64,000 nucleotides of DNA, taken from a virus. The position numbers and the translations under genes were made by a program. Below the pieces are notes generated by a model. That model ran no database searches. It saw only the letters and a program-made list of their open reading frames with translations, and was not told the origin of the DNA. This document shows positions 1,943 to 54,531 of the stretch, piece after piece. The DNA lies in IMG/VR virus record IMGVR_UViG_3300025009_000054, positions 78,705 through 142,704 of that record. One strand, written 5' to 3'. Within the stretch, counting starts at the first letter, position 1, and the number at the start of each line of letters is the position of its first letter.

Positions 1943-3196
1943 TTATCTTCCTCCAGGGTTTATTGCTCTTTTGATTCTCATAAGCGAGAACCTGTCATAT
2001 CTTATATCGAGATTATCACGATTAAACCGCATACTCTCGACCTTGGCATTATCACACCAGCCACATTCTATCGTAGACGCAGCATAATTACGACCACTAC
2101 TGTATGTGTTGCCATTAGACATATGACTACATGCTATGATATGTGATGCGAATGCTGGTATATCATCATCGGTTCCAGATGCCTTACATATGTTCTGCAT
2201 CATTTTACCCGTATCAACCCCAAGCGACGCTATCACACTATACATTGATTCAATCATGTAGAGAGTTAAATTATACGCTTCGGGATAGATCATTCTCTCA
2301 TTTGCAGAATTTGTTAAATCCCGCTCGTGCCATGTTGGGATGTTCTCCATCGCAACAACCACGTATGATCTGACCATCCTAGCGAGGGAACATATACGTT
2401 CACATAATCCTGGATTTTTACCAGACTTATGTTTCATTGACGACGACCCAGCCGCAGATTCCTTCGACACCTCATATACCTCATCAATTTCCGGACGAGC
2501 GAGGTTTCTTATCTCTGTTGCAATACGCTCTAGGGTGCTAGCTATAAGTGCTAGCTGACATATATACTTAGCATATACCGATCTATCGACGATCTGCGAC
2601 GACGCTGCCGCTGGATATAGTCCCAGTATATAGCACGCTTTCCTCTCGACATCTGGATCGAGTACATTATACGACCCAACTGGTCCAGACATCTTACCAT
2701 AATACTCGTTAGCATTGAGATCATTGATGTGTCTTGTTATATCCCATATCCAGCTAGCCAATTTGCTAGAAAATTTCATTGGTTCTGCCCACTGTCCATG
2801 CGTCCTACCAATAATTATAGCACCAGAATTATCTTTAGCACACTTCTCTATGGCATTTCTAAATTCGACCAGTGAAGACATTATCTGTGTACCACTACGC
2901 ATACACATTAGCGACATCGATGTATCCATAACATCTGATGCCGCTAGTCCATAGTATACTGGAACGCATTCTGGATATTTATCCTCTACCCATGAGATGA
3001 AACCTATCATTTCATGAACATATTCATTGATAAATGCGTTGATAACTGGTAAGTCACCACCTAATATCTCTGGTATGCATTTTTTGGTAGACAAGCCATG
3101 CGATTTAATTACAGCATTCATAACCTGTGCCCAGGTTTGGTATTTGGATAGATCACTCCAAATACCATTACATTTGGTATCGTATCGGCTAGTCAT
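1943..3196 (-). CDS. purB: Adenylosuccinate lyase (divergent PurB)
   Basis: GRTHGQWAEP, GKMSGPVG, QIVDR, ERIATEIRNL, GSSSMKHKSGKNP (variant of SSxMPxKxN), WHERDLTNSANER. Confidence 0.92.
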   Translation of the reverse strand: MTSRYDTKCNGIWSDLSKYQTWAQVMNAVIKSHGLSTKKCIPEILGGDLPVINAFINEYVHEMIGFISWVEDKYPECVPVYYGLAASDVMDTSMSLMCMRSGTQIMSSLVEFRNAIEKCAKDNSGAIIIGRTHGQWAEPMKFSSKLASWIWDITRHINDLNANEYYGKMSGPVGSYNVLDPDVERKACYILGLYPAAASSQIVDRSVYAKYICQLALIASTLERIATEIRNLARPEIDEVYEVSKESAAGSSSMKHKSGKNPGLCERICSLARMVRSYVVVAMENIPTWHERDLTNSANERMIYPEAYNLTLYMIESMYSVIASLGVDTGKMMQNICKASGTDDDIPAFASHIIACSHMSNGNTYSSGRNYAASTIECGWCDNAKVESMRFNRDNLDIRYDRFSLMRIKRAINPGGR

Positions 3197-6751: not shown

Positions 6752-7369
6752 CTACATATTTGTTAATGAGAACGCTTTTTGTATGTCACTCTTAATAGCA
6801 TCGCGCAGAAACTTGAACTGCTTATATTCAGCCATACGATGCAAATACGACTGATGGAACGTTGGTACTAGTATAGCTGATCCCCACTCAAACTTGATCT
6901 GATTTGTGGTGCCACGTACGGCAGTCATACTCGATGGTCTTTTACCAACGACACTATGGTACGCAGACACACCAAGCGTCATTATAACTGTCGGTCTTAT
7001 TATATCTAATTGCTGCGATAGGTAGGTAGAGCAGCTTACAGACTCCTCCTTATTTGGATCACAGTCAGTGTCTCCATCGTGGGGTCTACATAGTACGGTA
7101 TTGGTAATAAATACATGCTCATCATCTATACCTAGCTCCGTAAGTATCTCATTAAATATGTCACCACCAGGTCCAGCGAGTATATTACCACTAGTTACTT
7201 CCTCGGCACCTGGACACAATCCTATAATTACAAGCTTACTGTGTATTGATCCACGTGGCATTACTGGTACTGGAGACAGTGCCCTAAGTGGGCACTCGTT
7301 ACAGTCCTGCATTTGTCCTACTAGATTTAGAAATTTTACTGTGTCCGGTCTATAACCTTCCATTATCAC
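6752..7369 (-). CDS. Family-4 uracil-DNA glycosylase-like Fe-S protein with atypical active-site motifs
   Basis: CNECPL, GLCPGAEE, TNTVLCRP, conserved Cys, IRPTVIMTLG, PTFHQSYL. Confidence 0.85.
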   Translation of the reverse strand: MIMEGYRPDTVKFLNLVGQMQDCNECPLRALSPVPVMPRGSIHSKLVIIGLCPGAEEVTSGNILAGPGGDIFNEILTELGIDDEHVFITNTVLCRPHDGDTDCDPNKEESVSCSTYLSQQLDIIRPTVIMTLGVSAYHSVVGKRPSSMTAVRGTTNQIKFEWGSAILVPTFHQSYLHRMAEYKQFKFLRDAIKSDIQKAFSLTNM

Positions 7370-7671
7370 CCCTCCACAGTCTTTTTAATATATAATCCAG
7401 GCAACCTACGCGCATCACCATCAAAACTAGTATTGATAGCATATGGCTTACGATACCATGGTTTATACATGAGGCTGACGCCAACACTACCACCACCAGA
7501 GGGTGCATCAATATGTATAGCTATTGGTAGACACGACGCCAGGACAGTCTGCACTAGCTGTATTAGCACATCAGTATGTACATCATATGCTATGTCGATG
7601 GAGTTTGATTCGGTACTATCACAATTCTCGATTTCCTTACTAAAGTCTGAGATAATTTCATCTATTGTCAT
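7366..7671 (-). CDS. Hypothetical protein
   Basis: 101-aa ORF overlapping both neighbours in operon fashion. Confidence 0.6.
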   Translation of the reverse strand: MTIDEIISDFSKEIENCDSTESNSIDIAYDVHTDVLIQLVQTVLASCLPIAIHIDAPSGGGSVGVSLMYKPWYRKPYAINTSFDGDARRLPGLYIKKTVEG

Positions 7672-8308
7672 TGTTCACTCCTAATCCCATCATCATATCC
7701 CATTCATACATATTCTTGTTAGCATTAACTTTCTCGCATTGTACACCTGGGACAGCGATATTAATCGTTCTCTTCATAACATTAGCTGTTGCATGCTCAG
7801 CACTAGCCTTATCGCTAGCAATACTAGTAAAGTCTGACTGCAATACACGCAAGGCATATGTAATATGTCTGGCTCCAGCAGATATAGATTGCTCGATAGC
7901 GTACGATATCTGCTCATTCGATGGCTTCATAGTAAACATTTGCCAGAGTGATGTAAATTGCGATGAATCGAAATCCGACATCATCAGGTTTGTGGTTATT
8001 GAGTTATATATATTCTGAAATTCTTCATTATATATGACATCTGAGTATCTAGCATTATTCTTGAGGTAGTTCACTAATCCTGGGTAGAAATACACTATTC
8101 CAGTGGCGACTTTATCAATACTCTTTGGGGTTGACCATTTCGACATCAATTCCATTACGGCTTTGACAGGATAGTTATACGCCATCAAATCAGCATGACA
8201 CAAATCTACAGGGGTGCACTGAGCGGTCACCCCTGTAGACTCACATATACTTCTATGATGCGCAATAAGCGTCCTTCCACCGTATGTCATTGGACGCTCA
8301 CTAATCAT
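7658..8308 (-). CDS. Protein with DnaD/DnaB_2-like domain (possible helicase loader or initiator)
   Basis: EQISYAIEQSISAGARHITYALRVL resembles the DnaD-domain consensus; lies upstream of the primase-helicase. Confidence 0.5.
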   Translation of the reverse strand: MISERPMTYGGRTLIAHHRSICESTGVTAQCTPVDLCHADLMAYNYPVKAVMELMSKWSTPKSIDKVATGIVYFYPGLVNYLKNNARYSDVIYNEEFQNIYNSITTNLMMSDFDSSQFTSLWQMFTMKPSNEQISYAIEQSISAGARHITYALRVLQSDFTSIASDKASAEHATANVMKRTINIAVPGVQCEKVNANKNMYEWDMMMGLGVNNDNR

Positions 8309-8683
8309 TTATTCCTCCACACCACCATCGACTATCTGGACAGGTGGTACTGTATCATTGGATTCTTCAGATTTTGCATTACTACATGCGCACTGATGAC
8401 CTCCATCATCTACTGCCATAACAGCCTGGAGCAGTCCTAGCGTCTGTCTCTCGGTAATTGGTGCAGATGCCATCATCTTCCCATACTCAACAAGACCCAT
8501 CTGCAGCATAGTATCTGCGCCGAATGGTACGTACTCATATCTAGGCTGGTGAGTATCTGGGTCAACTTTCACACCAATGAGTACAAATGCAGCATATCCA
8601 GCATCACGCGCAAACCTCTTAATCGGATCCTCTCCTACGATCGGTATATTTCCACCGATAGGGATTCCTCTACCACTTGACAT
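8309..8683 (-). CDS. Hypothetical protein
   Basis: AGGAGG RBS; abuts the next gene. Confidence 0.7.
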   Translation of the reverse strand: MSSGRGIPIGGNIPIVGEDPIKRFARDAGYAAFVLIGVKVDPDTHQPRYEYVPFGADTMLQMGLVEYGKMMASAPITERQTLGLLQAVMAVDDGGHQCACSNAKSEESNDTVPPVQIVDGGVEE

Positions 8684-8730: not shown

Positions 8731-9444
8731 CTAAGCAGATTTGATCATGCGGCCAATGATCATCGGTTGTCCGACTGAAGGTACGACAACTTCCCACACA
8801 TATTCGGCTCCAATAAGATTGAGCTTCTTTACTCCAAACTTGATATTACCGTTCATATCTACTTTTGAATGCTTAGTTCTATGCACATACGACGAATCAC
8901 ACTGAGAGTGTGAACCTACGATAGTAACACTATTTTTATAAAACATAGCCCACGCTATCTGTCCAATATCAAATACTTTATTCGTGACCATTACCGGTAT
9001 TGTTAATACTCCATCATTACCGGCTACACTATGCCATCCATCATTATGCCTCTTCGTAGTATTTGGTCCTCTACTGCGTCTAGGCTTCTTGGGTGCTATC
9101 GAATTCGGAATGGTCGCTGGTGATGAGCAATACATCGCAAGTCCTAAAGACGGGTTCTCTTCTACTATCATTCCACCTGGATGATCAGCCACACTCTTGC
9201 CAATCGGATGATATACAAGTACCCCAATGTCAGTACCAGACATATTACCCATAGTCTGCAAATAATCTTTGGTCATCTCGCCATTATTCCACATAGATAT
9301 AACAATCGGTCTAACATCACTATGTGGAGCCCATAGCCCATCACCACGTACCTTTATAGTAACGTCGTAGGCGGTAAACACTATTCCGCTTGAAACATAG
9401 TCAACTACTGTATCCCTTATTGCAACCTCTAATGATGCGTTCAT
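8731..9444 (-). CDS. Hypothetical two-domain protein coupled to PARP; C-terminus resembles duplicated AbrB/MraZ-like hairpins
   Basis: Start re-called at ATG 9444 (GGAGGGAG RBS), immediately after the PARP stop. N-terminal FTAYDVT..VR...VYHP domain, basic linker, then SVAGNDGVLTIP and KVDMNGNIKF repeats. Confidence 0.6.
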   Translation of the reverse strand: MNASLEVAIRDTVVDYVSSGIVFTAYDVTIKVRGDGLWAPHSDVRPIVISMWNNGEMTKDYLQTMGNMSGTDIGVLVYHPIGKSVADHPGGMIVEENPSLGLAMYCSSPATIPNSIAPKKPRRSRGPNTTKRHNDGWHSVAGNDGVLTIPVMVTNKVFDIGQIAWAMFYKNSVTIVGSHSQCDSSYVHRTKHSKVDMNGNIKFGVKKLNLIGAEYVWEVVVPSVGQPMIIGRMIKSA

Positions 9445-9445
9445 A

Positions 9446-10717
9446 TTATCTCCCTCCATCTGTGAACTCAATCAGGTATTTTGGATTTATCTGATCAGTT
9501 CTATACACAATCCACTCATTGTTCATTACTCCAGACTTATTTGCTTTCGCAAAAGTGGAGTCATGCCCACTCTTTGGTAGATTCTCGCCATAGTTATTTG
9601 GTACGTAATATTTGCCCATTGCCACATCACAAAGGAACATATAGCATGAGCTACTTCTAGTACCAGACCAATACCCATCTGAGTAATTCAACGCTTTGGT
9701 TGATTGGTCTGATGTATATATGCCATTGCCAAACATACGCCCAGTACAATATGGAGCATTACTTGGTGGGATAATAAAACCTTTTTGCATAATACTTAAT
9801 AGATTTCCAGACCTAGTACCATGCCATCCATCCCATATATTAGGTAGATTTGCTCCATAATTGGCAAAAGCATTCGACATGGATGCTATCTCAACCTTAA
9901 ATACCTTATGTGGACGAAGTCTAGAGCTTGAATGCATACTTTGTTGGGTAGATACATAGAGCTTTGTTATACGATCGATAACACTCTTGTCAGTAACTAA
10001 ACTTAATGATACCTCAAATAATTTTGGCTCTTCATTAGGTTCATTACCACTAGATACTACCATCTGAACAGATGACTCAAGAGAATCTAAAATACTATTT
10101 TGCTTTTGAATAGCATCAATATTTGGATATAGGTACTTAAGATTGGGTTTCCTCATACCTATATTCTGTGGGATAAGTTGTAGGTACTCGTTAACAGAAT
10201 CTATGAACGAAGGTGATTCATAATCATTGACTATCACATATTTACTTATACTATCAAGTAATAATCTGGCACATGAAATAGCCTCTGCCGTAACTACTCC
10301 AAGCGGTGTAGAATATGTGCCACGGCTTTCATCGTACTGTATTGTGGTATTGGAGAGGATGTTATGTCGATTTACACTGACAAGATACGAAACCAAATCT
10401 CTGGTTTCGTTATTATCTGTTTGTATCTGTCCTGTTGCCACTTGCGCCAGTCTTCCTGACGTAACTGTTTTACCGCTCTCCGTAGAGGTACCCCGTATAG
10501 TTTGCGTCGCCTTGTAACCATGGGATCCCTTCTCAATGACCTTTTGGTCATAGAAACCTTTGCCATGGCCAATGACTTTTCTTTGGCCACTATATCCGAC
10601 ACGGCCCCAGTGAGTTTCTACTGCACCGTCGTCATATAAATAAATAGACCAAAACTTATTATTGTTTTCACTAACATCTGCCTTATTAAAATGACGCTCT
10701 TCCACTATATTTGCCAT
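9446..10717 (-). CDS. Poly(ADP-ribose) polymerase-family protein (WGR + helical regulatory + catalytic domains)
   Basis: WGR: NNNKFW...HWGRVG; helical domain PLG...YLQLIPQ; catalytic WHGTR, GRMFGNGIY, KALNYS, FLCDVAMG, NNEWIVY, QINPKYL. Confidence 0.93.
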   Translation of the reverse strand: MANIVEERHFNKADVSENNNKFWSIYLYDDGAVETHWGRVGYSGQRKVIGHGKGFYDQKVIEKGSHGYKATQTIRGTSTESGKTVTSGRLAQVATGQIQTDNNETRDLVSYLVSVNRHNILSNTTIQYDESRGTYSTPLGVVTAEAISCARLLLDSISKYVIVNDYESPSFIDSVNEYLQLIPQNIGMRKPNLKYLYPNIDAIQKQNSILDSLESSVQMVVSSGNEPNEEPKLFEVSLSLVTDKSVIDRITKLYVSTQQSMHSSSRLRPHKVFKVEIASMSNAFANYGANLPNIWDGWHGTRSGNLLSIMQKGFIIPPSNAPYCTGRMFGNGIYTSDQSTKALNYSDGYWSGTRSSSCYMFLCDVAMGKYYVPNNYGENLPKSGHDSTFAKANKSGVMNNEWIVYRTDQINPKYLIEFTDGGR

Positions 10718-10814: not shown

Positions 10815-11204
10815 CTATGTCAAGCTTGACTCTAAAGCATGCTTATCATCCTGAGCAGATGTAGAGCCAGCTCCCATACCACCCTTGTCTGGATCACTAG
10901 CCCAATCACGCTTAAATACCTCTGTTGATACTTCGGTAATCGCGTCCTGCAAATCTATGCCCTCGGCACTACAATACCCAGCTAGAAATACTATAACATC
11001 AGCAACAGCGTCTCTAGCCTTTGATAGATATGTCTCTCTTGTCATGCCACGTATACCCTGAACACTCTTTAGATGCGCGTGTGCTAATTCACCTATTTCC
11101 TCTACGGCTCCAAGTAGACAGTGATACGGCACTTGCTCACCAAAATTCCTATCAGACCACTCCTTTTGATTTCTCTGTAATTCTCGAAATGTTAGCTCAC
11201 TCAC
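10815..11204 (-). CDS. MazG-like nucleotide pyrophosphohydrolase (MazZ candidate)
   Basis: ELQ...W..RNF, EEIGELA, DAVADVIVFL, GIDL, KRDW: single-domain all-alpha NTP-PPase. Confidence 0.85.
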   Translation of the reverse strand: MSELTFRELQRNQKEWSDRNFGEQVPYHCLLGAVEEIGELAHAHLKSVQGIRGMTRETYLSKARDAVADVIVFLAGYCSAEGIDLQDAITEVSTEVFKRDWASDPDKGGMGAGSTSAQDDKHALESSLT

Positions 11205-14137
11205 AGTGATAGTACCTCATACCCTTCATCAGTCGCGTATTTTACCCTATTTCTATGATGCTTCGATAGATACCTACAATTCATATCGGCAATGTCAAGA
11301 ACAAGACCATTCTTCTTATCAGGTCTATTTGGATCTTTCCTCATGACACGACCAACACGCTGTATATACATGCCACGCTCAGCACCATCAACCACCACAA
11401 TTAAGTCTAAACTAGGAACATCAACACCCTCATTAATGAGTGTAGTTATCATGCATTTAAGCTCACGGCTCTTAAGTTTAGTAAATGCACGTTTTCTATC
11501 GCCTTTACTATCACTACTAATAAGCAAGATAGCACCAGGTATTAGGGGTAGTAAATTTTTACCATGCTCCACTTTACTAATAGCTATAGCTACAGTAGAT
11601 CCACTATCCATAGCACGTATTACACTATCGGCTATCATTTGGTTACGTTCTGCATTGTCTATAATGAGTTGTCTATAGACATCGTTATATGATATGTCAA
11701 TTTCCTTACGACATTTTGGACAATAACCTTTGTGGCCTACGAACGATGCTGAGAATTCGATTACATTACCACATTTGCCCTTACCGACCTTAGTTGGGCA
11801 TATAACCTTAATAATATTTTTAGAATGATCAAATTTCTCGCACCTGATAATGGGCGGGACCAATATTCCAGCATCTATAATCTCTTTTGGACGTGCCATA
11901 TACAGCATCCTCGGAAGAGCCGCTTCAATAAGCAGGTCTGTGTCATCGTCACGGTAAGGCGTCGCTGAGTTATGTACTAATACCCCATTAGCCACAAACG
12001 ATGGATGCCCATCCATTTCTAAATCATATACATAGTCGATACTATCAAATACTGATAGTCCAGTATCCTTGATTTGCACCTCATTAAATGAGTAGTTACT
12101 ATGGCAATATTTTGATCTTGTACCGCTACGACCATTATTCTTACCATTCATAGCATTAGTAGACCATGTTACTATATATGACGGATGTTTACCGATAATT
12201 TTCCTACCATACACAGTTCCACCATCACGTGGTCCGGATTTTGGTGATGTAGATCCCGAAACACCTATACTACGAAGCAAACACAGAATATCCATAACTA
12301 ACTTATAGGATGTCGTGGTGTAATAACACCTTTTGCGATTTCTCGATCTTTCTGCACTATGACCATCAGAATCTATTAATCCATTTAATAATTGACGTCT
12401 AGACTGATATGACCATGAAAAAAGACACTCACCTGGTATATGCTTCGTTAAATGGTTTACCTTACCAAAATACGATTGGAATATATCGACTAATATAGCA
12501 CTATTTATCTCTACCTGGGTAGATCCATCTCGTTTATCAAGTGTTAGATTACAATGTAGCCATGACATACTATTCACTTTACTGATAAATGCATCAACAT
12601 CTTCACTACATATCGAAAAACACAATTGATTTGTATCTATCCAACCATCTCCAATAAAATAGCCCATAATATATGCTAAATCTACAGTTGGAATGTACGC
12701 ATCCACCCACCCACCATGTGAATTACCAGAATAGATCCTAGTTGGTTTTGGCAATATATTTTTATGTTGTTTATATATACTTAACGACAAATAGTGTCCA
12801 TACTGACCACGATTCCTAAACCTAAACCATGCTTTTGGGTCCAAATTTAATGCTCGACGATTAGTACTCGTCAAATCAACACATACTAGGGTTCCTGAGT
12901 CATCAGCTCTATCTGACGCGTCGATCATATCAATACCACGATCACACCAATCTATTCCATCATCTCCAATTAATACATCACCAATAATCAAATCCTGGGC
13001 TGATGCTTCAGACACTATAACCTGATGTTTGGTATCTCCAATATTTCTACCACCAGGTACTATCTTATATATGGAATGATCATTCGTCGTATTTAGCCAA
13101 GTTCCGTATACACGTACACCTGGTAGCTCACTAGATGCCGGTACATGCCTAATAAAATTTTTGATAGGTTTCCATGCAAACTTATCACCAGTCCAACCAC
13201 GTGACATTATGCCCTGACCAGATACATCTATAATCTCATATCCATCAGATGTTATATGTGATGCCATGTCAGTACAAGAAGCAATATAGAAAGCATCTGC
13301 GATTTTACAATGTTGTCCAGTCCCAAAAGGACCACCAATAAGCTCTACATACGATTCGCTATGAACTGATAAACCTACGCGTACGTCGGCCTCGGAAAAG
13401 GCTCCGAAGGTATCGAAAACTGTCTGGGCTCGTAGGTGGTGCATTTCATCGCAAAACACGACTCTCGTGTTTTTAATCATATTCTTAAGGTCATTTGTCC
13501 GATAATCGTCCTTTGAACTCATGATCTTACCAATAGTCTGCAATGTCGCAACAGTCACCACATTAGGTTCAAATACAGTATCACCAACTATTCCAATACC
13601 GGTACTCGGTAAATACTCCTTAAATGATTCATATGTCTGATATAAGAGCTCTATATTATGTACCAGAAACACTGATGGAACACCCATTTCAGCTATGGCG
13701 TGAGCGGCAAGTAGTGTCTTACCAGACCCAGTAGGGAGACATATCACGCCACATTTCTTCTCAAGTATTGCTTGACACGCGGCCTTCTGATAATCTCTAG
13801 GATCTCTATTGGGTGTCCAATCGAACTTATCCTCATACCCCTTCTGAATACGATGGTCAATAATATCAATCTTAATATCTGGTCTAGCCTTAGATATAGC
13901 CCATTTTACTCTATCGACAAGTCCTGTTGGAAATTCATATGTGTCAGAGTTAAAAACTGATACAATGCCCGACATATTCTTTTGTGCCCATTTAGACCTA
14001 TGTTTAAACCCAGGATCCTTATATGAGCACACTGAGCACGCATGGCCTACAGCATTTATTGGGTCGTAATCGCACTCTTCAATAATTATTTTACTATACG
14101 CAGACCTTACATCTATTTTCATTACTGGTTTCCCCAT
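11201..14137 (-). CDS. SF2 DNA helicase (UvsW/XPB-like) interrupted by an intein
   Basis: Q motif PRDYQ, LPTGSGKT, DEMHH, motif III GL|SATP split by the intein, EGVDVP, QRVGRVMR; extra CxxC-type zinc ribbon in the C-extein. Confidence 0.92.
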   Translation of the reverse strand: MGKPVMKIDVRSAYSKIIIEECDYDPINAVGHACSVCSYKDPGFKHRSKWAQKNMSGIVSVFNSDTYEFPTGLVDRVKWAISKARPDIKIDIIDHRIQKGYEDKFDWTPNRDPRDYQKAACQAILEKKCGVICLPTGSGKTLLAAHAIAEMGVPSVFLVHNIELLYQTYESFKEYLPSTGIGIVGDTVFEPNVVTVATLQTIGKIMSSKDDYRTNDLKNMIKNTRVVFCDEMHHLRAQTVFDTFGAFSEADVRVGLSVHSESYVELIGGPFGTGQHCKIADAFYIASCTDMASHITSDGYEIIDVSGQGIMSRGWTGDKFAWKPIKNFIRHVPASSELPGVRVYGTWLNTTNDHSIYKIVPGGRNIGDTKHQVIVSEASAQDLIIGDVLIGDDGIDWCDRGIDMIDASDRADDSGTLVCVDLTSTNRRALNLDPKAWFRFRNRGQYGHYLSLSIYKQHKNILPKPTRIYSGNSHGGWVDAYIPTVDLAYIMGYFIGDGWIDTNQLCFSICSEDVDAFISKVNSMSWLHCNLTLDKRDGSTQVEINSAILVDIFQSYFGKVNHLTKHIPGECLFSWSYQSRRQLLNGLIDSDGHSAERSRNRKRCYYTTTSYKLVMDILCLLRSIGVSGSTSPKSGPRDGGTVYGRKIIGKHPSYIVTWSTNAMNGKNNGRSGTRSKYCHSNYSFNEVQIKDTGLSVFDSIDYVYDLEMDGHPSFVANGVLVHNSATPYRDDDTDLLIEAALPRMLYMARPKEIIDAGILVPPIIRCEKFDHSKNIIKVICPTKVGKGKCGNVIEFSASFVGHKGYCPKCRKEIDISYNDVYRQLIIDNAERNQMIADSVIRAMDSGSTVAIAISKVEHGKNLLPLIPGAILLISSDSKGDRKRAFTKLKSRELKCMITTLINEGVDVPSLDLIVVVDGAERGMYIQRVGRVMRKDPNRPDKKNGLVLDIADMNCRYLSKHHRNRVKYATDEGYEVLSL
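11969..13369 (-). mobile_element. Intein (467 aa) with LAGLIDADG homing endonuclease in helicase motif III
   Basis: Begins SVHSESYV (Ser1), block B TTNDHS, IMGYFIGDG and LLNGLIDSDG, ends YVYDLEM...NGVLVHN followed by Ser+1; removal restores GLSATP. Confidence 0.92.
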
Positions 14138-15854: not shown

Positions 15855-16505
15855 CTACTCAGATTTATCTGTAACATATCCAGCGCGGTTTCTATGAACG
15901 CCCTCTGAACAGTTACAGTTCCAACAAAGCACTCTTAATCCTAAATTATCTGGGTATCCATTATTGCGCAACCATCGATAAAACTTCTCACCACCACGCT
16001 TACCATTAATATTAGAGTGTATAATACCATCTTTATATGAGTGGTCTATTGTTAAAAACAATAGATTAGTCTCATGACAGACTACGCATTCGCTTCCATA
16101 ATGAGATATGGCGTCGTACTTCAAACGACGTGAGTATTTCGTATAGTAATTGCTAGACTCAACTATGCCATTATGAGGACATTGCCCACTATTAATAGAT
16201 CTCCCAGAGTTACAATTCCAACACAATAATCTATAACAAGTTGGATATCCATCACGGACTATCTGACGATACAAAGCATGAGTATTTCCAGCTTCCCTAA
16301 GATGTGCTTTACCACCACCATCAATATGATCTAAAGTTAGGAAATCAATATTACTGATACCACAACATGAACATTTACCACCATAATGCTCAATAATCAA
16401 TATGCGGGCTTTCTCTCTGTATCTACGTTTTATAGATTTAATGACATCTGGATGTGACTGGCGATACTCAGCATTCATAACTTTACGCTGTTCTTTACTT
16501 ACCAT
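15855..16505 (-). CDS. Free-standing HNH endonuclease with two tandem HNH domains
   Basis: Two copies of HYG..CxxC...FLT(L/I)DH...R(L/V)LCWNCN. Confidence 0.88.
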   Translation of the reverse strand: MVSKEQRKVMNAEYRQSHPDVIKSIKRRYREKARILIIEHYGGKCSCCGISNIDFLTLDHIDGGGKAHLREAGNTHALYRQIVRDGYPTCYRLLCWNCNSGRSINSGQCPHNGIVESSNYYTKYSRRLKYDAISHYGSECVVCHETNLLFLTIDHSYKDGIIHSNINGKRGGEKFYRWLRNNGYPDNLGLRVLCWNCNCSEGVHRNRAGYVTDKSE

Positions 16506-17010
16506 CTAATAGTCCAGCCATTTTACACATCGTTACCCAATCGGACATTTGCATAACAACAAATCTATTAGTATCTCCCTTGATATGAAAACCCATCCAC
16601 GGAATCTTAGGCGGGCTACACTCGCCTGCATCTCTTATTATATCGTCTAAATCTTTTCTTGGTAACACAATATTCTTCTGCACTACACTATGTGGAGTAA
16701 TATCTTTACACTCACCAAGTAATTTGTTACTAACAATATCACCTTTACCGAACTCTTTACTACTACCGGAGTATGGTACTCGATCAGAACCTGTAGCCTT
16801 AGCAAATGCTTTTTCATTTGCCTTACCACGTGCGCGGTTTCTACGGTTTCGCTTTATACGCTCAAATTTGTCAACACGTGCCTTTTCTAGTATATCGGCT
16901 TTCGCAGTATCTGTAAGCGTATCAAGCACTAACTTATATTTATCAAGAGCCTTCGTCTGTTCCGCTGGAGTTAGTATTGTGTTCTCCAGAGTCACCTTCT
17001 TTGATCTCAC
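16495..17010 (-). CDS. PD-(D/E)xK nuclease, Holliday-junction-resolvase-like
   Basis: GKANEKAFA...RVPYSGS...GDIV...GECKD; directly downstream of RecA. Confidence 0.65.
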   Translation of the reverse strand: MRSKKVTLENTILTPAEQTKALDKYKLVLDTLTDTAKADILEKARVDKFERIKRNRRNRARGKANEKAFAKATGSDRVPYSGSSKEFGKGDIVSNKLLGECKDITPHSVVQKNIVLPRKDLDDIIRDAGECSPPKIPWMGFHIKGDTNRFVVMQMSDWVTMCKMAGLLDGK

Positions 17011-17989
17011 TTGGCATACCAGCTTTCTGTCTTACAACGGCTATTAAATCCATAATATGCTGACAAAACACTGGATCTGATCTTAACGCAACATCTATAG
17101 CCTTCTTACCATTCCACTTTTTGTCAGTGTTAGCAAGGTAAAACCACGACGACACTTGCGTTATAATATTAAGCGAGATTGCCTCTTCGATTAGATTACC
17201 AATTATATCTATACCAGAATCAAATCTAAAGTCATACTCACCCTTGCCATACGGTGGAGCAACTGATGATTTCTCAACAATAACTCTAACTCTGTGACCT
17301 ACAACATCATCGCCCAATTTGATCTGTTCAAGTCTTTTTAGTTCTAGTCTAAGCGATGCCCAGAATTTGAGAGCCCTTCCACCGGCTGTATCTTCATTTT
17401 TACCGAACATAACCATTGGCTTAGAACGCTTCTGGTTGATAAATACTACTATACACTTCTTTTCGGCAACCTTCGGACCAATCTTCCTTAGTGCCTCAGC
17501 CATAAGTTTCGAAGTTGGTGCGATGTGGGTATCACCAATATCACCCTTAGCTTCATCTTCTGTTACAAGAGCAGCTACACTATCTAGAACGATAAAATCG
17601 AAAATATCCGCATCGATAGCATCTTCAAGTATCTGTAATGCCTCTTCACCAACCATCGGACGTGCATATACAAGTCGATCCGGATCCATTCCTAGCATCA
17701 ATGCGAATGCACCCCAGAATCTACGTTCCATATCTATCCACAGAACGTTACCACAAACATTTTTCTGTATAGACGCACCCCATACCATAGCTAAAGCTGA
17801 TTTTCCGACAGCCTCATCTCCAAATATCTCTACAATAATGCCACGCGGTGCACCACCAAGCTTGATAGCTTTATCGAGTGCTGGTATTCCTGTGGATATA
17901 ACTTCTCCAGGTGGTGGGACCTCTGTACCAACTCTACCTGGGTGTTTTTTACTCTGGGATGTTATAAAATCAGTAAGGGGACCTGCCAT
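16943..17989 (-). CDS. recA: RecA/UvsX recombinase
   Basis: ISTGIPALD, GIIVEIFGDEAVGKS, IDME, LDSVAAL, FINQ, GGRALKFWASLRL, VAPPY. Confidence 0.96.
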   Translation of the reverse strand: MAGPLTDFITSQSKKHPGRVGTEVPPPGEVISTGIPALDKAIKLGGAPRGIIVEIFGDEAVGKSALAMVWGASIQKNVCGNVLWIDMERRFWGAFALMLGMDPDRLVYARPMVGEEALQILEDAIDADIFDFIVLDSVAALVTEDEAKGDIGDTHIAPTSKLMAEALRKIGPKVAEKKCIVVFINQKRSKPMVMFGKNEDTAGGRALKFWASLRLELKRLEQIKLGDDVVGHRVRVIVEKSSVAPPYGKGEYDFRFDSGIDIIGNLIEEAISLNIITQVSSWFYLANTDKKWNGKKAIDVALRSDPVFCQHIMDLIAVVRQKAGMPSEIKEGDSGEHNTNSSGTDEGS

Positions 17990-19389: not shown

Positions 19390-20592
19390 TCAGTACTTGC
19401 TTTGATAGGCCGGTTCGAAGTCCCTCTTATATCCAGGCTTCGATGATGATTCAGGCGATAGTATGCCGGATTTGAATGCAAACTCTCTAAGTTTACCTGG
19501 ATGCATAGTGATTATATGTTCTGGGCGTGGACCCGTACTTAGCCACCCAATAGAATCAAATAAATCATATTCTGCAGCGAATTTGGCCACCCATTCTTTA
19601 CTAACCTGGGACAGACCTTCCCAAGCATTTTTACCATAGTCAATCGCGGCGATATAATCTATGAACGTGACCATTATCGATCCTGGTCGATTAATAGCAA
19701 GGGCTTTTCTAAACAATTTAGGACTAATCTCACCAACTCTTCTAACTCTCTTCGTAACAGTCGTCATTTCAATAACAGGCTTAGACGATCCACTACGAGT
19801 CTGAATTTCTTCCCACGTGAGTTCCTGAACATTCTCGTCTTCATACCCAAATGGTCCACTGTTGCCAGCAACCCTAATTGGATATGTTCTCATAACACCA
19901 TATATACTACGTACGGACATTGGTGATAGTCCAGCTTCTGCAAGCCAGTTTGCTGCGTTTGTATCTCTGGACGTAGTTTTTGGATATAAACCATGGTACA
20001 TCGATAAAGCCATTCCCTGAGTTCCTTCGAGCATAACGGGAAATCCATTGTTTACCATATTATTGAGTATCATGCATGTATCGCCGATGTAGGGTTTAAG
20101 ATAACTCACATCTTTGGCTAAGGTCACATCACCCTGCCTTTTAATCCTATCAATGAGAGCCGCACCACACCCTTCACGTGTACTACCAATAGCTTCGAAC
20201 AGATCTTTACTACCATCTTTTCCATGCTCAGCATCAATATGTTTCTGCTCAATCAGAATGGCATTTGGATCAATGACGAGTCTACCATCATCCCATACCT
20301 TTTCTTCCTTCAGCCAACCGATTTCCCGATCTAGTACGGTTGGAATAATCATAGCACCAGCACCAATTACGAGCTGTGCTTTTGGTGCCGCTATAGACCC
20401 GCATGGAATGGTTTGAAAAGCAAGCTTCTTCTTTCCATCTTTACTATAGACATAATGGCCAGCATTCGGCGATCCTGTACGCACTAAAGCACCATTATTA
20501 TATTGCCCAGCAATATGTTCACACAATTTTCCTTTTGCTTCAGAACCAAATGCGAGTCCGACGACGATATCTACGCACCTATTAGTGATCAT
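19390..20592 (-). CDS. purZ: PurZ0-like N6-succino-2-amino-deoxyadenylate synthetase (PurA family)
   Basis: GSEAKGK (Ser where PurA has Asp), PNAGH, IGST, LEGTQG, YPKTTSRD, RTYPIRV (Ile where PurA has Thr), TTVTKRVRRVG, TFID and STGP. Confidence 0.82.
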   Translation of the reverse strand: MITNRCVDIVVGLAFGSEAKGKLCEHIAGQYNNGALVRTGSPNAGHYVYSKDGKKKLAFQTIPCGSIAAPKAQLVIGAGAMIIPTVLDREIGWLKEEKVWDDGRLVIDPNAILIEQKHIDAEHGKDGSKDLFEAIGSTREGCGAALIDRIKRQGDVTLAKDVSYLKPYIGDTCMILNNMVNNGFPVMLEGTQGMALSMYHGLYPKTTSRDTNAANWLAEAGLSPMSVRSIYGVMRTYPIRVAGNSGPFGYEDENVQELTWEEIQTRSGSSKPVIEMTTVTKRVRRVGEISPKLFRKALAINRPGSIMVTFIDYIAAIDYGKNAWEGLSQVSKEWVAKFAAEYDLFDSIGWLSTGPRPEHIITMHPGKLREFAFKSGILSPESSSKPGYKRDFEPAYQSKY

Positions 20593-51867: not shown

Positions 51868-54531
51868 TTACATCGTATTGGGTAGATTCACATTACTAGT
51901 AGCCTCAGGCGGAAGACCTTCTGGCATACTTTCTATTGGCATCTCACCCATGTCCTCCGGACCAAATCCAGCCTCAGGTAGTCCCATACCACCATCTGAT
52001 GGTAGCATTGGCATATCAGGTCCTGGTGGTACGGGACCACCACCAGGAATTTTCATCGCTTTATCAAATACAGTACCCTTTTCTTTTTCAATACCCTCAA
52101 TAGCAACCTTAGGATTAATGCCAACAGATTTGAGTACCGTTGATGCAGGAATAAGTCCTTTGTCATATAATGCTTGCATTAGCTGTATTTTCTGCAAGTC
52201 ATCCCTCAAGTTTGCCTTAGACCAATGAATTTCAGGGTACCAAGGCACTCTATCTCTGCCACTAACGCGGTAACGACCCAACAATTCACTATCTACAGGT
52301 TTATATACGTTATGTATCCTAAGGATAGGACCAAAGAAATGGACTTTTAACCATTGCTCGACCTTCTTACGTAGGAATAGGTATCTATTGATTAAGACAT
52401 CCATAGCTACACTTGTTGCTGAGAATCCTGGTCCTGTTCCATCAATAAACCCTCTAGACATCAACATTCCGGCAAGGATGTTCTTTTCTATATTATCAAA
52501 TTCTGCATTCAGAGGTAGAATACGTCCTGAGTTACCGTGTATCGCCAACTTGCCATTCCTACGAGTTACAAATAGACCATTAGGAACTGTTACGCACCAT
52601 ACCTTACCATTATATTTAGTAATATTAATATCACCACTATTAACATGTGGATATTTTCCTATATCATTTTTAGTGGTCCAATATACCGCATAACAGTCGC
52701 GACGATTATCAAACCCACCTTTCTGTTCAGGTGTATATGGTTTAATAGTAGGAGCGTATCCACACTTCCACGCCAATTCCTGAATATCATCAGCTAATTT
52801 CACTGAAGTCGTCCAATATGTCCAGTAACCGGACCCACGATGATCACACCCATCACCATCACAGACAGCATCAAGAAATATCTGTATATAGCGCGGCGGT
52901 AGGTTTTTGATCCATTGTGGTACGCATTTTTTGTGCCACAGATGTCCAAAATCATCAGCAAGTTTTCTTGTTAAATCTGTATCACTACAGATTAGTCGCA
53001 CACATCTATTACCAACTTTATTGGGAGACGATACGTACTCAAAATGCGGTATTTTGGTATCAGACATTAAAGTGCGCATGTCATCTAAGACGCGAGTATT
53101 TTCATTTTGCGATATATAGAATCTGCCATCAGTGTCCGATCTAAAGTACGACGACCCCTCAGACGCAAAATATCCACCGAGTCTTAGATATTGACCAATT
53201 GTGATACTAAGGTTACCTATATCTATAGTATCACAATCAAGTTTAGTACCATGCCACTCTGCACCGACGCGGAACTTATAATCACCGCGCAACTCATCAG
53301 CACGTATTATTTCGTAGTCTGCATACTTGCGGACCCCATTTGCTCTTTTACGACGACTAACTAACATTCTATGATTCGGTGTCACCATAGTATCTACTTT
53401 ATTATCAGTGGAAAAATGGTACATATCGCCATCGTAGTCGTATATGTGTATAGCTTCAGGATTATGATATTCAATTATTCCAGTACCTTGATTTAGAGTC
53501 GCTATTTCATCATTAAGTGATAGCTCATTATAATACTTAAAGCCATCCCTAGTGAGACATTCAGTTTGATCATCATGGCAGGCACCCTCCCACTGAATGC
53601 GGAGTGCGTGATGCCACACTATTGCTTGATTTGGTTGTGTCCATGATGCCTCAAGTGCATCTTTAAATGAGTTAAGCTCTTCCTGATCTGCAGGCTCACC
53701 AGCTTCACCAATCATGTAGAACTCTTTTGGTGTTACGTGGCGATCTGCAATAGCGTATTGAGCTTCTCTCAATTTCTCCCTGTACATTAATAATTTGAAA
53801 CACGCGAGAAGTAATGGAGTTCCACGTTCATTATGAACATTGCCCATACTCTTAACGTGCGATGCACATATTGGGTCGAGGGGCATCGGTTCGTCTCGCA
53901 TGACGTAATATATCACATCTTCTGGCATATTACGATATATTTCGCCAGTGTTGGGATCATTAGGACCATTCGCTACAATACGTTTAGTAATAGGGTCTGG
54001 CAGTTTATTAATCCTTTTCGATGCAAGACCATGTGCCATTGGTAGCGAGAATACATCTACATAATCTGGATCTAAACATATGAATTTGTCCCACATTGTA
54101 GGATTGTCTGGATCGTCCAGTATGCCAAATGGGAAAAATTCGCCAACTGTCCAGTATTCAAGCACAGCATCCATTAGAAAATCGAATATTTCTGCCCTAT
54201 CAATCATTTCCTGGCATAATGCTTGTATAGCCGGATCTTCGTGTTCTACATATATATCTGATAACGGAAATTCAGTATGTAGAGTAAGAGCAGCTCTAAC
54301 AATTGGCTCTGAATCAAAGAAATATCTGCACCATGCATTTATCTTCCTTCGATCTTTTGGCACCTCCATAGTACTCATTTCCCAAAATGGGTTGAAATAC
54401 TGTTGGGTCATAAGGTCTACAGATCCGCCAGCGCTGCGTTTCATATTATTACGTGCGCCATCACTCATTGGAATGCCATTTAAGGCATTCGTGAACTCAT
54501 TATTCAGATTGGAGGTGATTAACCTACCCAT
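51868..54531 (-). CDS. Portal protein interrupted by an intein
   Basis: WCRYFF.EPIVRAA, EYWTVGE, LDPDYV, RGTPLL, AQYAIADRH; Pro/Met/Gly-rich tail; directly upstream of the protease. Confidence 0.82.
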   Translation of the reverse strand: MGRLITSNLNNEFTNALNGIPMSDGARNNMKRSAGGSVDLMTQQYFNPFWEMSTMEVPKDRRKINAWCRYFFDSEPIVRAALTLHTEFPLSDIYVEHEDPAIQALCQEMIDRAEIFDFLMDAVLEYWTVGEFFPFGILDDPDNPTMWDKFICLDPDYVDVFSLPMAHGLASKRINKLPDPITKRIVANGPNDPNTGEIYRNMPEDVIYYVMRDEPMPLDPICASHVKSMGNVHNERGTPLLLACFKLLMYREKLREAQYAIADRHVTPKEFYMIGEAGEPADQEELNSFKDALEASWTQPNQAIVWHHALRIQWEGACHDDQTECLTRDGFKYYNELSLNDEIATLNQGTGIIEYHNPEAIHIYDYDGDMYHFSTDNKVDTMVTPNHRMLVSRRKRANGVRKYADYEIIRADELRGDYKFRVGAEWHGTKLDCDTIDIGNLSITIGQYLRLGGYFASEGSSYFRSDTDGRFYISQNENTRVLDDMRTLMSDTKIPHFEYVSSPNKVGNRCVRLICSDTDLTRKLADDFGHLWHKKCVPQWIKNLPPRYIQIFLDAVCDGDGCDHRGSGYWTYWTTSVKLADDIQELAWKCGYAPTIKPYTPEQKGGFDNRRDCYAVYWTTKNDIGKYPHVNSGDINITKYNGKVWCVTVPNGLFVTRRNGKLAIHGNSGRILPLNAEFDNIEKNILAGMLMSRGFIDGTGPGFSATSVAMDVLINRYLFLRKKVEQWLKVHFFGPILRIHNVYKPVDSELLGRYRVSGRDRVPWYPEIHWSKANLRDDLQKIQLMQALYDKGLIPASTVLKSVGINPKVAIEGIEKEKGTVFDKAMKIPGGGPVPPGPDMPMLPSDGGMGLPEAGFGPEDMGEMPIESMPEGLPPEATSNVNLPNTM
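52531..53580 (-). mobile_element. Intein (350 aa) with LAGLIDADG domain in the portal
   Basis: Starts CHDDQTECLT, block B VTPNHRM, GYFASEGS and FLDAVCDGDG, ends VWCVTVPNG...IHGN followed by Ser+1. Confidence 0.92.

What the first reader, a model, noticed from the sequence alone, without database searches (positions are those of the whole stretch)
9446..10717. Phage-encoded PARP3-like enzyme with an intact H-Y-E triad
Seen: a WGR DNA-break-sensing domain, a helical auto-inhibitory domain, and a catalytic domain with His (WHGT), Tyr (GIY) and Glu (NNEWIVY). Established: this architecture matches eukaryotic PARP2/3 and the few bacterial PARPs, whereas classical phage ADP-ribosyltransferases (T4 Alt/Mod) are R-S-E type. 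Inference: a DNA-activated ADP-ribosylation system embedded among recombination and replication genes. Possible roles are marking or protecting phage DNA ends, modifying host defence proteins, or draining NAD+.
Basis: partly seen in the sequence, partly recalled or inferred. Interest (0 to 1): 0.78.

Follow-up and report, generated by a model that had tools for sequence, protein, structure and literature searches.

The report
Phage PARP with conserved DNA-binding partner
A large uncultured phage encodes a genuine PARP-type ADP-ribosyltransferase of a kind already noted in phages and bacteria, and what is new is that it is tightly coupled to a previously unnamed DNA-binding partner gene that accompanies this PARP subclade in phages and bacteria.

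Summary
Window 9446-10717 (-) encodes a 423-aa WGR-helical-catalytic PARP with His299, Tyr334 and Glu401 aligned to PARP1 H862, Y896 and E988. The contig is a 142.7-kb phage record.

The novelty claim is weakened. Phage PARPs with intact H-Y-E triads were reported in 2014 and again in 2021-2024 surveys. I found 18 GenBank phage records, 49 IMG/VR contigs, over 450 metagenome stretches and a PHROG family. None has been assayed biochemically. "PARP3-like" is not specifically supported: the best matches are PARP1 and PARP2.

No PARG, macrodomain, ARH, NADAR, Nudix or NAD-salvage gene is in the contig.

One thing was not found in the searched literature. The downstream gene (8731-9444) is translationally coupled to the PARP. 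It belongs to a large unnamed family with a winged-helix domain and a MraZ/AbrB-like domain. It lies co-oriented with the PARP in 44 of 54 closest metagenome loci, 20 of 47 viral loci and 12 of 67 bacterial loci.

Best reading: a DNA-discontinuity-activated PARP acting with a DNA-bound partner in phage DNA replication, recombination and repair. Function is inferred, not shown.

Earlier scan notes on overlapping windows of this same genome flagged both genes. The scan showed no such note on other DNA.

The parts
9446..10717 (-). PARP gene, 423 aa, WGR-HD-ART architecture
   Evidence: ORF; Pfam PARP 2.6e-26, WGR 3.3e-8, PARP_reg 1.1e-4; PDB PARP1/PARP2; PHROG 23333 6.5e-56; model and Foldseek
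10493..10708 (-). WGR domain (about residues 4-75). N18-N19-N20-K21-x-W23, G38-R39 and K63...G67-Y68 are invariant; W37 is conserved in at least 90%
   Evidence: Pfam WGR; invariant columns in A1; beta-strands plus helix in the model. The three conserved blocks look like the three co-evolving WGR regions described for bacterial PARPs (PMC5966428); that correspondence is inferred from pattern and spacing, not aligned
10052..10456 (-). Helical (auto-inhibitory type) domain, about residues 88-222
   Evidence: Pfam PARP_reg 22.7 bits, below the 26.8 cut-off; phmmer alignment to the PARP1 HD from residue 134; helices in the model; many relatives carry PF02877
9458..10012 (-). ART catalytic domain, about residues 236-420. 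His299 is at 9821-9823, Tyr334 at 9716-9718, Glu401 at 9515-9517
   Evidence: Pfam PF00644; residue-by-residue alignment to PARP1; invariance in A1
9453..9457 (-). GGAGG Shine-Dalgarno for the partner gene. It lies inside the last PARP codons, 8 nt before the partner ATG. The PARP TAA stop is at 9446-9448, followed by one base and then the ATG at 9442-9444
   Evidence: Sequence read directly; no terminator-like site between the two genes on the minus strand
8731..9444 (-). Conserved partner gene, 237 aa: winged-helix N-domain, S/T/P/A-rich linker, MraZ/AbrB-like C-domain
   Evidence: Co-oriented with the PARP in 76 loci; 2,237 cluster representatives at E<=1e-3; no Pfam or PHROG hit for the window copy
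9175..9444 (-). Partner N-domain (residues 1-90): three helices plus a beta-hairpin. F23, A25, D27, T29, R33, H41 and Y61 are 92-99% conserved across the family
   Evidence: pLDDT 85-97; Fur/PadR winged-helix matches at Z 6-8.1 and Foldseek prob 0.9-0.96; conservation
8734..9042 (-). Partner C-domain (residues 135-237): tandem swapped-hairpin, MraZ/AbrB-like. The window copy lacks both Arg of the family's first D-x-R-G-R hairpin
   Evidence: Profile against PDB: AbrB and SpoVT are the top hits at E 0.05-1.4; single members hit Pfam AbrB-like 3e-4 and MazE_antitoxin 3.1e-4; MraZ 1n0e Z 7.2, rmsd 2.9 over 93 residues; Foldseek MraZ prob 0.9-0.94; Atlas MraZ cluster. pLDDT is only 50-76

Best explanation
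The ORF encodes a catalytically competent PARP-family (H-Y-E, diphtheria-toxin-like) ADP-ribosyltransferase with the WGR-helical-ART architecture of PARP1-3 and of the bacterial PARPs. It is co-transcribed and translationally coupled with a conserved DNA-binding protein made of a winged-helix domain and a MraZ/AbrB-like domain. Proposed mechanism, all inferred: the WGR domain binds nicks, gaps or ends that arise in replicating and recombining phage DNA. That binding unfolds the auto-inhibitory helical domain and opens the NAD+ site. The enzyme then uses host NAD+ to ADP-ribosylate itself and DNA-bound proteins. The partner is the most likely dedicated acceptor or adaptor. The modification would mark or clear the lesion so that the phage's own RecA, resolvase, helicase and ligase can act. 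Shown here: the domain architecture, the catalytic residues, the operon structure, the gene linkage and the repair-type contexts. Not shown: enzymatic activity, DNA dependence, mono- versus poly-ADP-ribosylation, any PARP-partner contact, and any biological role.
For: Domains and triad. The catalytic and WGR residues are invariant or nearly so in 27 relatives at 48-55% identity, which implies purifying selection on activity and on DNA sensing. The two bacterial enzymes of this architecture that have been assayed (Herpetosiphon, C. difficile) make PAR in vitro, and the Herpetosiphon enzyme needs DNA (PMC8120803; PMC4245714). Operon: the SD lies inside the PARP 3' end, there is a 1-nt gap, and no terminator. 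Linkage: the partner is present in 44/54 metagenome, 20/47 viral and 12/67 bacterial PARP loci that have at least 1.5 kb downstream. All 76 are on the PARP strand, and the partner is the only real neighbour family found in more than 9 loci. Searching from the partner side, 2 of 3 informative contigs carry a PARP upstream. Two close-clade phages without an adjacent partner encode it 11-14 kb downstream on the same strand. Context: phage replication and recombination genes in the window. Elsewhere there is a PARP - ATP-dependent DNA ligase - partner arrangement and Rnl1, Rnl2, a topoisomerase subunit and nucleases near phage PARPs. A Blastocatellia chromosome has ExoIII-family nuclease - PARP - short partner - SRAP, with RuvB, a Metallophos phosphoesterase and an SbcC-like ATPase nearby.
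Against: There is no biochemical evidence for this protein or for any phage PARP. No eraser (PARG, macrodomain, ARH, NADAR) was found in the contig, so a reversible signalling cycle would depend on host enzymes or would not exist; the record is only 82% complete. The residue at the position of PARP1 Ser904 is Ala in this copy, though Ser in most relatives. The position of PARP1 Tyr986 is Asn in the whole clade, so polymer formation is uncertain. The window PARP sits on a long terminal branch of 0.63. The window's partner has lost both arginines of the first hairpin motif, so its DNA binding may be weakened. The partner's C-domain model has low confidence. Cultured PARP phages of Klebsiella, Xanthomonas and Cellulophaga lack the partner altogether, so PARP function does not generally require it.
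Confidence: 0.55

Rival explanations
1. Host-takeover or counter-defence effector. The PARP modifies host proteins such as RNA polymerase, the translation apparatus or defence proteins, as T4 Alt/ModA/ModB do, or it reshapes the NAD+ pool. DNA sensing would be secondary.
For: This is the reading proposed for phage PARPs in comparative surveys (PMC7824862; PMC9503650). The distribution among phages is patchy and shaped by horizontal transfer. No eraser is present in the contig.
Against: The WGR and helical domains are retained with invariant or near-invariant DNA-sensing residues. The same PARP-partner pair sits in bacterial chromosomes among repair genes rather than in conflict islands. The gene lies in the replication and recombination module, not near head or packaging genes where injected ARTs are usually encoded (PMC9503650).
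Confidence: 0.2
2. Toxin-antitoxin-like or superinfection-exclusion module. The PARP acts as an NAD+-consuming or protein-modifying toxin. It is held in check or transcriptionally autoregulated by the partner, which would be an AbrB/MazE-type plus winged-helix antitoxin.
For: AbrB/MazE/SpoVT and wHTH folds are typical antitoxin DNA-binding modules (Pfam MazE_antitoxin 3.1e-4 in one member). The pair is a tightly coupled two-gene cassette. The cassette moves between phages and several bacterial phyla. Some phage ARTs belong to type II TA systems (PMC9503650).
Against: The PARP already carries its own auto-inhibitory domain. The toxin-first gene order is the less common one. The partner has two DNA-binding-type domains and no recognisable toxin-neutralising segment. 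In about a third of linked loci other genes, such as a DNA ligase, lie between the two, and the distance reaches 14 kb; this is unusual for TA pairs. Many PARPs in the clade and all cultured phage PARPs lack the partner.
Confidence: 0.12
3. DNA-end modifier. The enzyme ADP-ribosylates terminal phosphates of phage DNA breaks or genome ends, protecting them from host exonucleases or priming them for ligation.
For: Mammalian and plant PARP1-3 ADP-ribosylate DNA strand-break termini in vitro (PMC5861426, PMC5725667, PMC5843604, PMC7726343; listed). Ligases (an ATP-dependent DNA ligase, Rnl1, Rnl2) recur next to phage PARPs.
Against: It is purely analogical. Nothing in the sequence distinguishes DNA acceptors from protein acceptors. 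It gives no role to the conserved partner.
Confidence: 0.1
4. Decaying or catalytically dead passenger gene acquired recently from a bacterium.
For: Long terminal branch of 0.63. Ala at the Ser904-equivalent position. The window copy of the partner has a degenerate hairpin motif. The window PARP is nested in a clade dominated by bacteria.
Against: The reading frame is intact. H, Y, E, G300, K341 and Y345 are all kept, and so are the WGR residues. Translational coupling is preserved. Ala at that position also occurs in other full-length relatives.
Confidence: 0.03

Closest known systems
Bacterial PARPs (Herpetosiphon aurantiacus HaPARP, Clostridioides difficile CdPARP)
   Same: Compact WGR-PARP_reg-PARP_cat architecture without zinc fingers or BRCT, an intact H-Y-E triad, and about 420-450 aa. 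In the PARP tree the window protein nests among bacterial sequences from Armatimonadota, Blastocatellia and Gemmataceae (PMC5966428; PMC8120803).
   Different: It is encoded by a phage. No PARG or macrodomain is in the contig, whereas HaPARP and CdPARP have cognate PARGs (PMC8120803). It is coupled to a winged-helix/MraZ-like partner that those papers do not mention.
Previously noted phage PARPs (Cellulophaga phi4:1, Aeromonas Aeh1, Xanthomonas XacN1 and Xoo-sp13, Klebsiella 05F01 and FBKp34; PHROG 23333)
   Same: Same family and architecture. The window protein is 22-36% identical over about 95% of its length to most of them (PHROG 6.5e-56). These were reported in PMC4245714, PMC7824862 and PMC9503650.
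   Different: The window protein belongs to a different subclade, nearest to bacterial copies. The cultured phages I checked have no partner-family gene anywhere in their genomes.
Human PARP1 and PARP2 (DNA-break-activated PARPs)
   Same: Best sequence and structure matches across WGR, HD and ART. His, Tyr, Glu, Gly863, Lys903 and Tyr907 all have equivalents.
   Different: No zinc fingers, BRCT or N-terminal tail. About 20-24% identity. The Tyr986 position is Asn and the Ser904 position is Ala in this copy. No HPF1 homologue is known here; whether the partner is any kind of functional analogue is speculation.
T4 Alt/ModA/ModB ADP-ribosyltransferases
   Same: Phage-encoded NAD+-dependent ARTs.
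   Different: They belong to the R-S-E (cholera-toxin-like) clade, are mono-ARTs, some are packaged in the head, and they target host proteins (PMC8120803). The window enzyme is H-Y-E and carries DNA-sensor domains.
MraZ and AbrB/SpoVT/MazE swapped-hairpin DNA-binding proteins (compared with the partner's C-domain)
   Same: Tandem hairpin repeats with a family consensus D-x-R-G-R-x-x-I-P followed by V-D-x-x-x-N-x-R. MraZ is the best structural match for residues 135-235.
   Different: The similarity is marginal (E about 0.05, Z 7.2). The domain is fused to an N-terminal winged helix through a low-complexity linker. The window copy lacks the first-hairpin arginines.

Membership tests
PARP / ARTD (H-Y-E ADP-ribosyltransferases with the PARP catalytic domain) | Catalytic domain matches PF00644 above its curated cut-off | tested here: met
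   92.8 bits against 26.7, residues 248-418 covering profile positions 5-197 of 199
PARP / ARTD | His-Tyr-Glu triad at the NAD+ site | tested here: met
   H299, Y334 and E401 align to PARP1 H862, Y896 and E988 and are invariant in 27 relatives
DNA-dependent PARPs (PARP1-3 and bacterial PARP type) | WGR domain N-terminal to the catalytic region | tested here: met
   PF05406 34 bits against 22, although only profile positions 3-47 of 79 are matched. G38 and R39 are invariant and W37 is at least 90% conserved. Full-length alignment to PARP2 from residue 7. Foldseek match to DNA-bound PARP1 and PARP2
DNA-dependent PARPs | Helical (PARP_reg, auto-inhibitory) domain between WGR and ART | tested here: met
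   Pfam PF02877 scores 22.7 bits, under its 26.8 cut-off. However, phmmer aligns residues 134-250 to the PARP1 HD, the model is helical over residues 88-222, and relatives carry PF02877
DNA-dependent PARPs | NAD+-dependent ADP-ribosyl transfer stimulated by DNA breaks | not testable with these tools
   Needs purified protein. It has been shown only for HaPARP, and activity for CdPARP (PMC8120803)
Poly- versus mono-ADP-ribosylating PARPs | Acceptor-site residues that support elongation (catalytic Glu plus the PARP1 Tyr986 and Lys903 positions) | tested here: inconclusive
   The Glu and the Lys903 equivalent (K341) are present. The Tyr986 position is Asn in the whole clade (N399-N400-E401 invariant). 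My reading of the role of Tyr986 rests on general knowledge, not on a test here
   The best PDB sequence hits are PARP1 (4e-23) and PARP2 (9e-20), followed by PARP4 and tankyrases. No PARP3 chain is among the 60 shown of 69 matches. The top Foldseek rows are PARP2 and PARP1
Reversible PAR system (writer plus eraser) | PARG, macrodomain, ARH or NADAR hydrolase encoded with the PARP | tested here: not met
   No match for PF05028, PF10021, PF01661, PF03747 or PF08719 in the 142.7-kb record. Positive controls responded for four of the five families. The record is 82% complete
T4 Alt/Mod-type phage ARTs | R-S-E active-site motif (cholera-toxin-like clade) | tested here: not met
   The active site is H-Y-E and the domain is PF00644
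Type II toxin-antitoxin pair (ART toxin plus AbrB/MazE-type antitoxin) | Adjacent small gene with an antitoxin-type DNA-binding fold | tested here: inconclusive
   An AbrB/MazE-like C-domain is supported only weakly. The partner is 237 aa with two DNA-binding-type domains. The spacing to the PARP is variable, reaching 14 kb
Type II toxin-antitoxin pair | Toxicity of the first gene that is neutralised by direct binding of the second | not testable with these tools
   Needs expression tests
MraZ / AbrB swapped-hairpin family (partner C-domain) | Tandem hairpin motifs with conserved Asp and Arg, and the swapped-hairpin barrel fold | tested here: inconclusive
   The family consensus is D-x-R-G-R ... 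V-D-x-x-x-N-x-R. AbrB profile hits at E 0.05. MraZ at Z 7.2. The window copy lacks the first-hairpin arginines, and the model's pLDDT there is 50-76

The most novel reading that the evidence does not exclude
The winged-helix/MraZ-like protein is a dedicated, co-evolved component of a prokaryotic and phage PARP pathway. It could be a DNA-bound acceptor whose ADP-ribosylation releases it from DNA, or an adaptor that directs the PARP to particular DNA structures. In that sense it would play a role comparable to the accessory factors and chromatin acceptors of eukaryotic PARP1/2. The pair would then be a minimal, tractable two-protein DNA-damage ADP-ribosylation module that is shared by bacteria and their phages and has not been described.
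Probability: 0.3. Interest if true: 0.7.

Novelty: new member of a known kind. Interest (0 to 1): 0.45.

Why it matters
Prokaryotic and phage PARPs have been catalogued for over a decade, but they have no known physiological role, substrate or partner. This window adds one more phage PARP, which is ordinary in itself. It also exposes a strongly linked, unnamed partner family of about 2,200 sequence clusters that gives a concrete first candidate for a substrate or cofactor. A two-protein system from phages or bacteria would be a simple model for how WGR-type PARPs are activated and what they modify. It could also clarify why large phages invest in NAD+-consuming DNA-damage signalling. If the pair instead behaves as a toxin-antitoxin or exclusion module, that would be a new use of a PARP.

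Tried and rejected
1. Complex prediction on PARP (A1) with the partner (A3) gave 'no answer', score 0.00 against a mark of 0.32. This is no evidence either way.
2. A single-sequence search of viral contigs found no relative. An alignment query was needed.
3. The partner alignment was too divergent for pattern-based locus retrieval. The word-indexed protein search found only the partner itself. The exhaustive profile search was needed.
4. Megablast of 15 kb of the window against GenBank phages found nothing, so there is no close cultured relative.
5. Searches of the record for PARG (two families), Macro, ARH, NADAR, NAPRTase, NMNAT-type and Nudix all found nothing. The PF05028 control did not respond in any genome, so that single negative is uninformative.
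6. I tested the idea that the partner's basic linker patch (PKKPRRSRG) is a conserved ADP-ribose acceptor or binding element. Across 146 family members the linker is S/T/P/A-rich, 8-87 residues long, with median net charge 0. The basic patch is not a family feature.
7. Pfam and PHROGs gave nothing for the window's partner or for the three small ORFs further downstream at 7366-8683.
8. No tRNA genes are in the window. Promoter-like and terminator-like counts around the operon do not exceed shuffled expectation.
9. The Aravind et al. ART review (PMC6126934) is not held, so I could not check whether it mentions the partner.
10. Feature-based ESM Atlas search of the partner gave no usable hit.
Full report
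OBSERVATION. The ORF exists exactly as described: window 9446-10717, minus strand, ATG start, 423 aa.
- Pfam gives PARP catalytic domain PF00644 at 2.6e-26 (92.8 bits against a cut-off of 26.7; residues 248-418).
- WGR PF05406 scores 3.3e-8 (34 bits against 22; residues 8-48, the N-terminal half of the profile only).
- PARP_reg PF02877 scores 1.1e-4 (22.7 bits, just under its 26.8 cut-off; residues 135-214).
- phmmer against PDB puts the PARP1 catalytic fragment first (4e-23, aligned from residue 134/136 and so through the helical domain). Full-length PARP2 follows at 9e-20 over residues 7-369.
- In the printed alignment WHGT pairs with PARP1 LWHGSR, GIYTSD with GIYFAD, TKALNY with SKSANY, and NNEWIVY with YNEYIVY. 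So His299, Tyr334 and Glu401 occupy the H862, Y896 and E988 positions, and K341 and Y345 occupy the K903 and Y907 positions.
- An AlphaFold2 model built on 27 relatives (mean pLDDT 83.2) shows a beta-rich N-domain, a helical domain and the ART fold.
- Its best Foldseek matches are WGR-HD-ART chains of human PARP2 and PARP1 bound to DNA breaks (E 5e-28 to 1e-26, about 485 columns).

WHAT GENOME. The window is the last 64 kb of a 142,704-bp IMG/VR virus record that CheckV estimates to be 82% complete. It carries a portal, a tail fibre, an ATP-dependent DNA ligase and a PurZ-like enzyme. Every ORF of 195 aa or more outside a longer minus-strand ORF is on the minus strand; the longest plus-strand ORF not wholly inside one (56097-56693, 198 aa) partly overlaps a minus-strand ORF. 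Around the PARP lie these genes:
- RNR large subunit, a PurB-like lyase and a primase-helicase.
- UDG, a MazG-like pyrophosphatase and an SF2 helicase interrupted by an intein with a LAGLIDADG endonuclease.
- A DNA methylase, an HNH endonuclease, a RusA-like resolvase and RecA.
There is no close cultured relative at the DNA level.

IS IT NEW? No, not as a class.
- tblastn finds homologues in 18 GenBank phage records, at 36% identity or less over about 95% of the length for most of them. They include Klebsiella 05F01, FBKp34 and KP13-16, Xanthomonas XacN1 and Xoo-sp13, Stenotrophomonas CM1 and RAS14, and the Cellulophaga phi4:1 group. Several are already annotated as poly(ADP-ribose) polymerase.
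- The protein matches PHROG 23333 at 6.5e-56.
- The 5.8-billion-protein index holds 1,383 relatives at E<=1e-10. The nearest are 46-55% identical and 420-440 aa long.
- Two short peptide patterns retrieved 49 IMG/VR contigs, many of 150-476 kb, at least 459 metagenome stretches and 84 stretches in GTDB species genomes.
- Perina et al. 2014 listed PARPs in Aeromonas phage Aeh1 and Cellulophaga phage phi4:1, noted their conserved H-Y-E triad and suggested that they are active (PMC4245714).
- Iyer et al. 2021 and 2022 describe PARP/PART enzymes in jumbo phages and rank them among the most frequent viral HY-[EDQ] ARTs (PMC7824862; PMC9503650).
- A 2024 gut jumbo-phage study invokes phage 'PARP1' in DNA repair (PMC11662467).
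- Two bacterial enzymes of the same architecture are active in vitro, and HaPARP is DNA-dependent (PMC8120803).
I found no report of biochemistry on any phage PARP.

'PARP3-like' is not specifically supported. The best matches are PARP1 and PARP2. Only the absence of zinc fingers and BRCT resembles PARP2/3, and all bacterial PARPs share that feature.

(a) Erasers and NAD salvage. The contig has no match for eukaryote-type PARG, microbial PARG, macrodomain, ARH, NADAR, NAPRTase, NMNAT-type or Nudix families. Controls responded for all except PF05028. The record is incomplete, so absence is provisional.
(b) Tree against bacterial PARPs. In a FastTree of 185 PARPs, the window protein falls in a clade of 31 with SH-like support 96. 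The other members of that clade are Armatimonadota, Blastocatellia and Gemmataceae genome sequences plus unassigned metagenome contigs. Some of the bacterial copies lie on contigs of 0.8-6.1 Mb in cellular contexts. The window PARP is the only viral-collection member of that clade and has a long terminal branch (0.63). This suggests exchange between such bacteria and their phages. The direction cannot be inferred because the tree is unrooted.

THE PARTNER GENE. The gene immediately downstream (8731-9444, 237 aa from the ATG) is translationally coupled. The sequence reads GAT GGA GGG AGA TAA T ATG, with GGAGG 8 nt upstream of the ATG and inside the last PARP codons. No terminator lies between the two genes.

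The window copy has no Pfam or PHROG hit. Clustering all ORFs in the PARP loci showed, however, that it is the only real neighbour family shared by many loci. The other large clusters are shadow ORFs inside the PARP gene itself.

An HMM built from the family found it in PARP loci that have at least 1.5 kb downstream as follows:

| Collection | Loci with partner |
|---|---|
| Metagenome (the 80 PARPs most similar to the query) | 44 of 54 |
| Viral | 20 of 47 |
| Bacterial genomes | 12 of 67 |

All 76 partner genes are on the PARP strand and nearly all lie downstream, most of them within 600 nt. Further evidence on the linkage:
- Searching from the partner side, 2 of 3 informative contigs carry a PARP just upstream, one with an ATP-dependent DNA ligase in between.
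- In two close-clade phages without an adjacent partner, it is encoded 11-14 kb downstream on the same strand.
- The distant cultured PARP phages lack it entirely.
- An exhaustive profile search finds 2,237 cluster representatives at E<=1e-3 and 1,330 at E<=1e-10, mostly 200-240 aa.

WHAT THE PARTNER IS. The N-domain (residues 1-90, pLDDT 85-97) has three helices and a beta-hairpin. It matches winged-helix regulators such as Fur, PadR and LmrR at Z 6-8.1 and Foldseek probability 0.9-0.96. F23, A25, D27, T29, R33, H41 and Y61 are 92-99% conserved across 146 diverse members.

A variable S/T/P/A-rich linker of 8-87 residues with no consistent charge follows.

The C-domain has the family consensus D-x-R-G-R-x-x-I-P followed by V-D-x-x-x-N-x-R. 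Four lines of evidence bear on it:
- Profile search of PDB ranks AbrB and SpoVT first, at a marginal E of 0.05-1.4.
- Single members hit Pfam AbrB-like and MazE_antitoxin at about 3e-4.
- The model's residues 135-235 match MraZ at Z 7.2, rmsd 2.9 over 93 residues, and at Foldseek probability 0.9-0.94.
- The ESM Atlas model matches an MraZ cluster.
Each line is weak, but they are independent and they agree. The model confidence there is only 50-76. The window copy lacks both arginines of the first hairpin (G-N-D-G-V-L-T-I-P), so it is a divergent member. Short forms of 126-170 aa next to Blastocatellia PARPs appear to keep mainly the N-domain.

I found no paper linking a PARP with such a gene; one relevant review was not available. 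An earlier first-reader note on this window (e1-5763813) proposed the same domain reading and the same coupling. I reached it independently and have now tested it.

MECHANISM. Shown: the architecture, the catalytic and WGR residues under conservation, the operon, the linkage and the repair-type contexts. Those contexts are:
- The phage replication and recombination module in the window.
- PARP - DNA ligase - partner in L055.
- Rnl1, Rnl2, a topoisomerase subunit and nucleases near other phage PARPs.
- ExoIII-family nuclease - PARP - short partner - SRAP in Blastocatellia, with RuvB, a Metallophos phosphoesterase and an SbcC-like ATPase nearby.

Inferred: WGR binding to DNA discontinuities relieves the helical domain's auto-inhibition. 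The enzyme then uses host NAD+ to modify itself and DNA-bound proteins. The partner is the best candidate acceptor or adaptor.

Uncertain: poly versus mono activity, because the Tyr986 position is Asn throughout the clade and the Ser904 position is Ala in this copy. Reversibility is also uncertain because no eraser was found.

Rivals are a host-takeover or counter-defence ART (0.2), a toxin-antitoxin-like or exclusion cassette (0.12), a DNA-end modifier (0.1) and a decaying passenger gene (0.03). The complex prediction returned no verdict and is not used as evidence.

VERDICT. This is a real PARP, correctly read by the first stage, but it is a new member of a kind already known in phages and bacteria. 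The added value is the conserved, unnamed winged-helix/MraZ-like partner. It turns an orphan enzyme into a testable two-gene module. Interest is moderate at 0.45.

Noticed in passing
window 11201-14137 (-): An SF2/ResIII-type helicase of 978 aa is interrupted by an intein carrying a LAGLIDADG homing endonuclease (Pfam LAGLIDADG_3 3.6e-11, Intein_splicing 9e-4, Hom_end 2e-3; helicase motifs on both sides).
   Followed up: no
window 19390-20592, 1943-3196, 10815-11204 (all -): A PurZ-like enzyme (phrog_1211 1.5e-67), a PurB-like lyase (Lyase_1 1.1e-28) and a MazG-like pyrophosphatase directly upstream of the PARP. Together they suggest a 2-aminoadenine (Z-base) DNA pathway, as earlier first-reader notes on this genome also propose.
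   Followed up: partly
window 51868-54531 (-): The 887-aa portal protein (phrog_16240 4.5e-42) has an internal stretch, residues 313-426, that hits phrog_85 'thymidylate synthase' at 5.8e-13. This is an odd combination that I did not examine.
   Followed up: no
L055:906-4373: A metagenome-derived contig has a longer PARP (530 aa), an ATP-dependent DNA ligase and the partner in a row on one strand. Cellulophaga phage phi4:1 also has a DNA ligase two genes downstream of its PARP (L054).
   Followed up: partly
L219/L220:7973-11530: On a Blastocatellia chromosome contig the PARP is flanked by an ExoIII-family nuclease upstream and, downstream, a short partner homologue and an SRAP (abasic-site sensor) protein. 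RuvB, a Metallophos phosphoesterase and an SbcC-like ATPase are nearby. This is a cellular DNA-repair neighbourhood.
   Followed up: partly
L218:10338-11393: In a Chthonomonadaceae chromosome the PARP is followed not by the partner but by a WD40 beta-propeller protein (351 aa) and an unknown 375-aa protein.
   Followed up: no
window 7366-8683 (-): Three consecutive ORFs of 124, 216 and 101 aa between the partner and UDG have no Pfam or PHROG match. tblastn found no homologue of them in the 49 viral PARP loci.
   Followed up: partly
window 16495-17989 (-): The RecA gene (16943-17989) overlaps the start of the RusA-like resolvase ORF (16495-17010) by 68 nt as listed. The resolvase probably starts at a later codon.
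   Followed up: no
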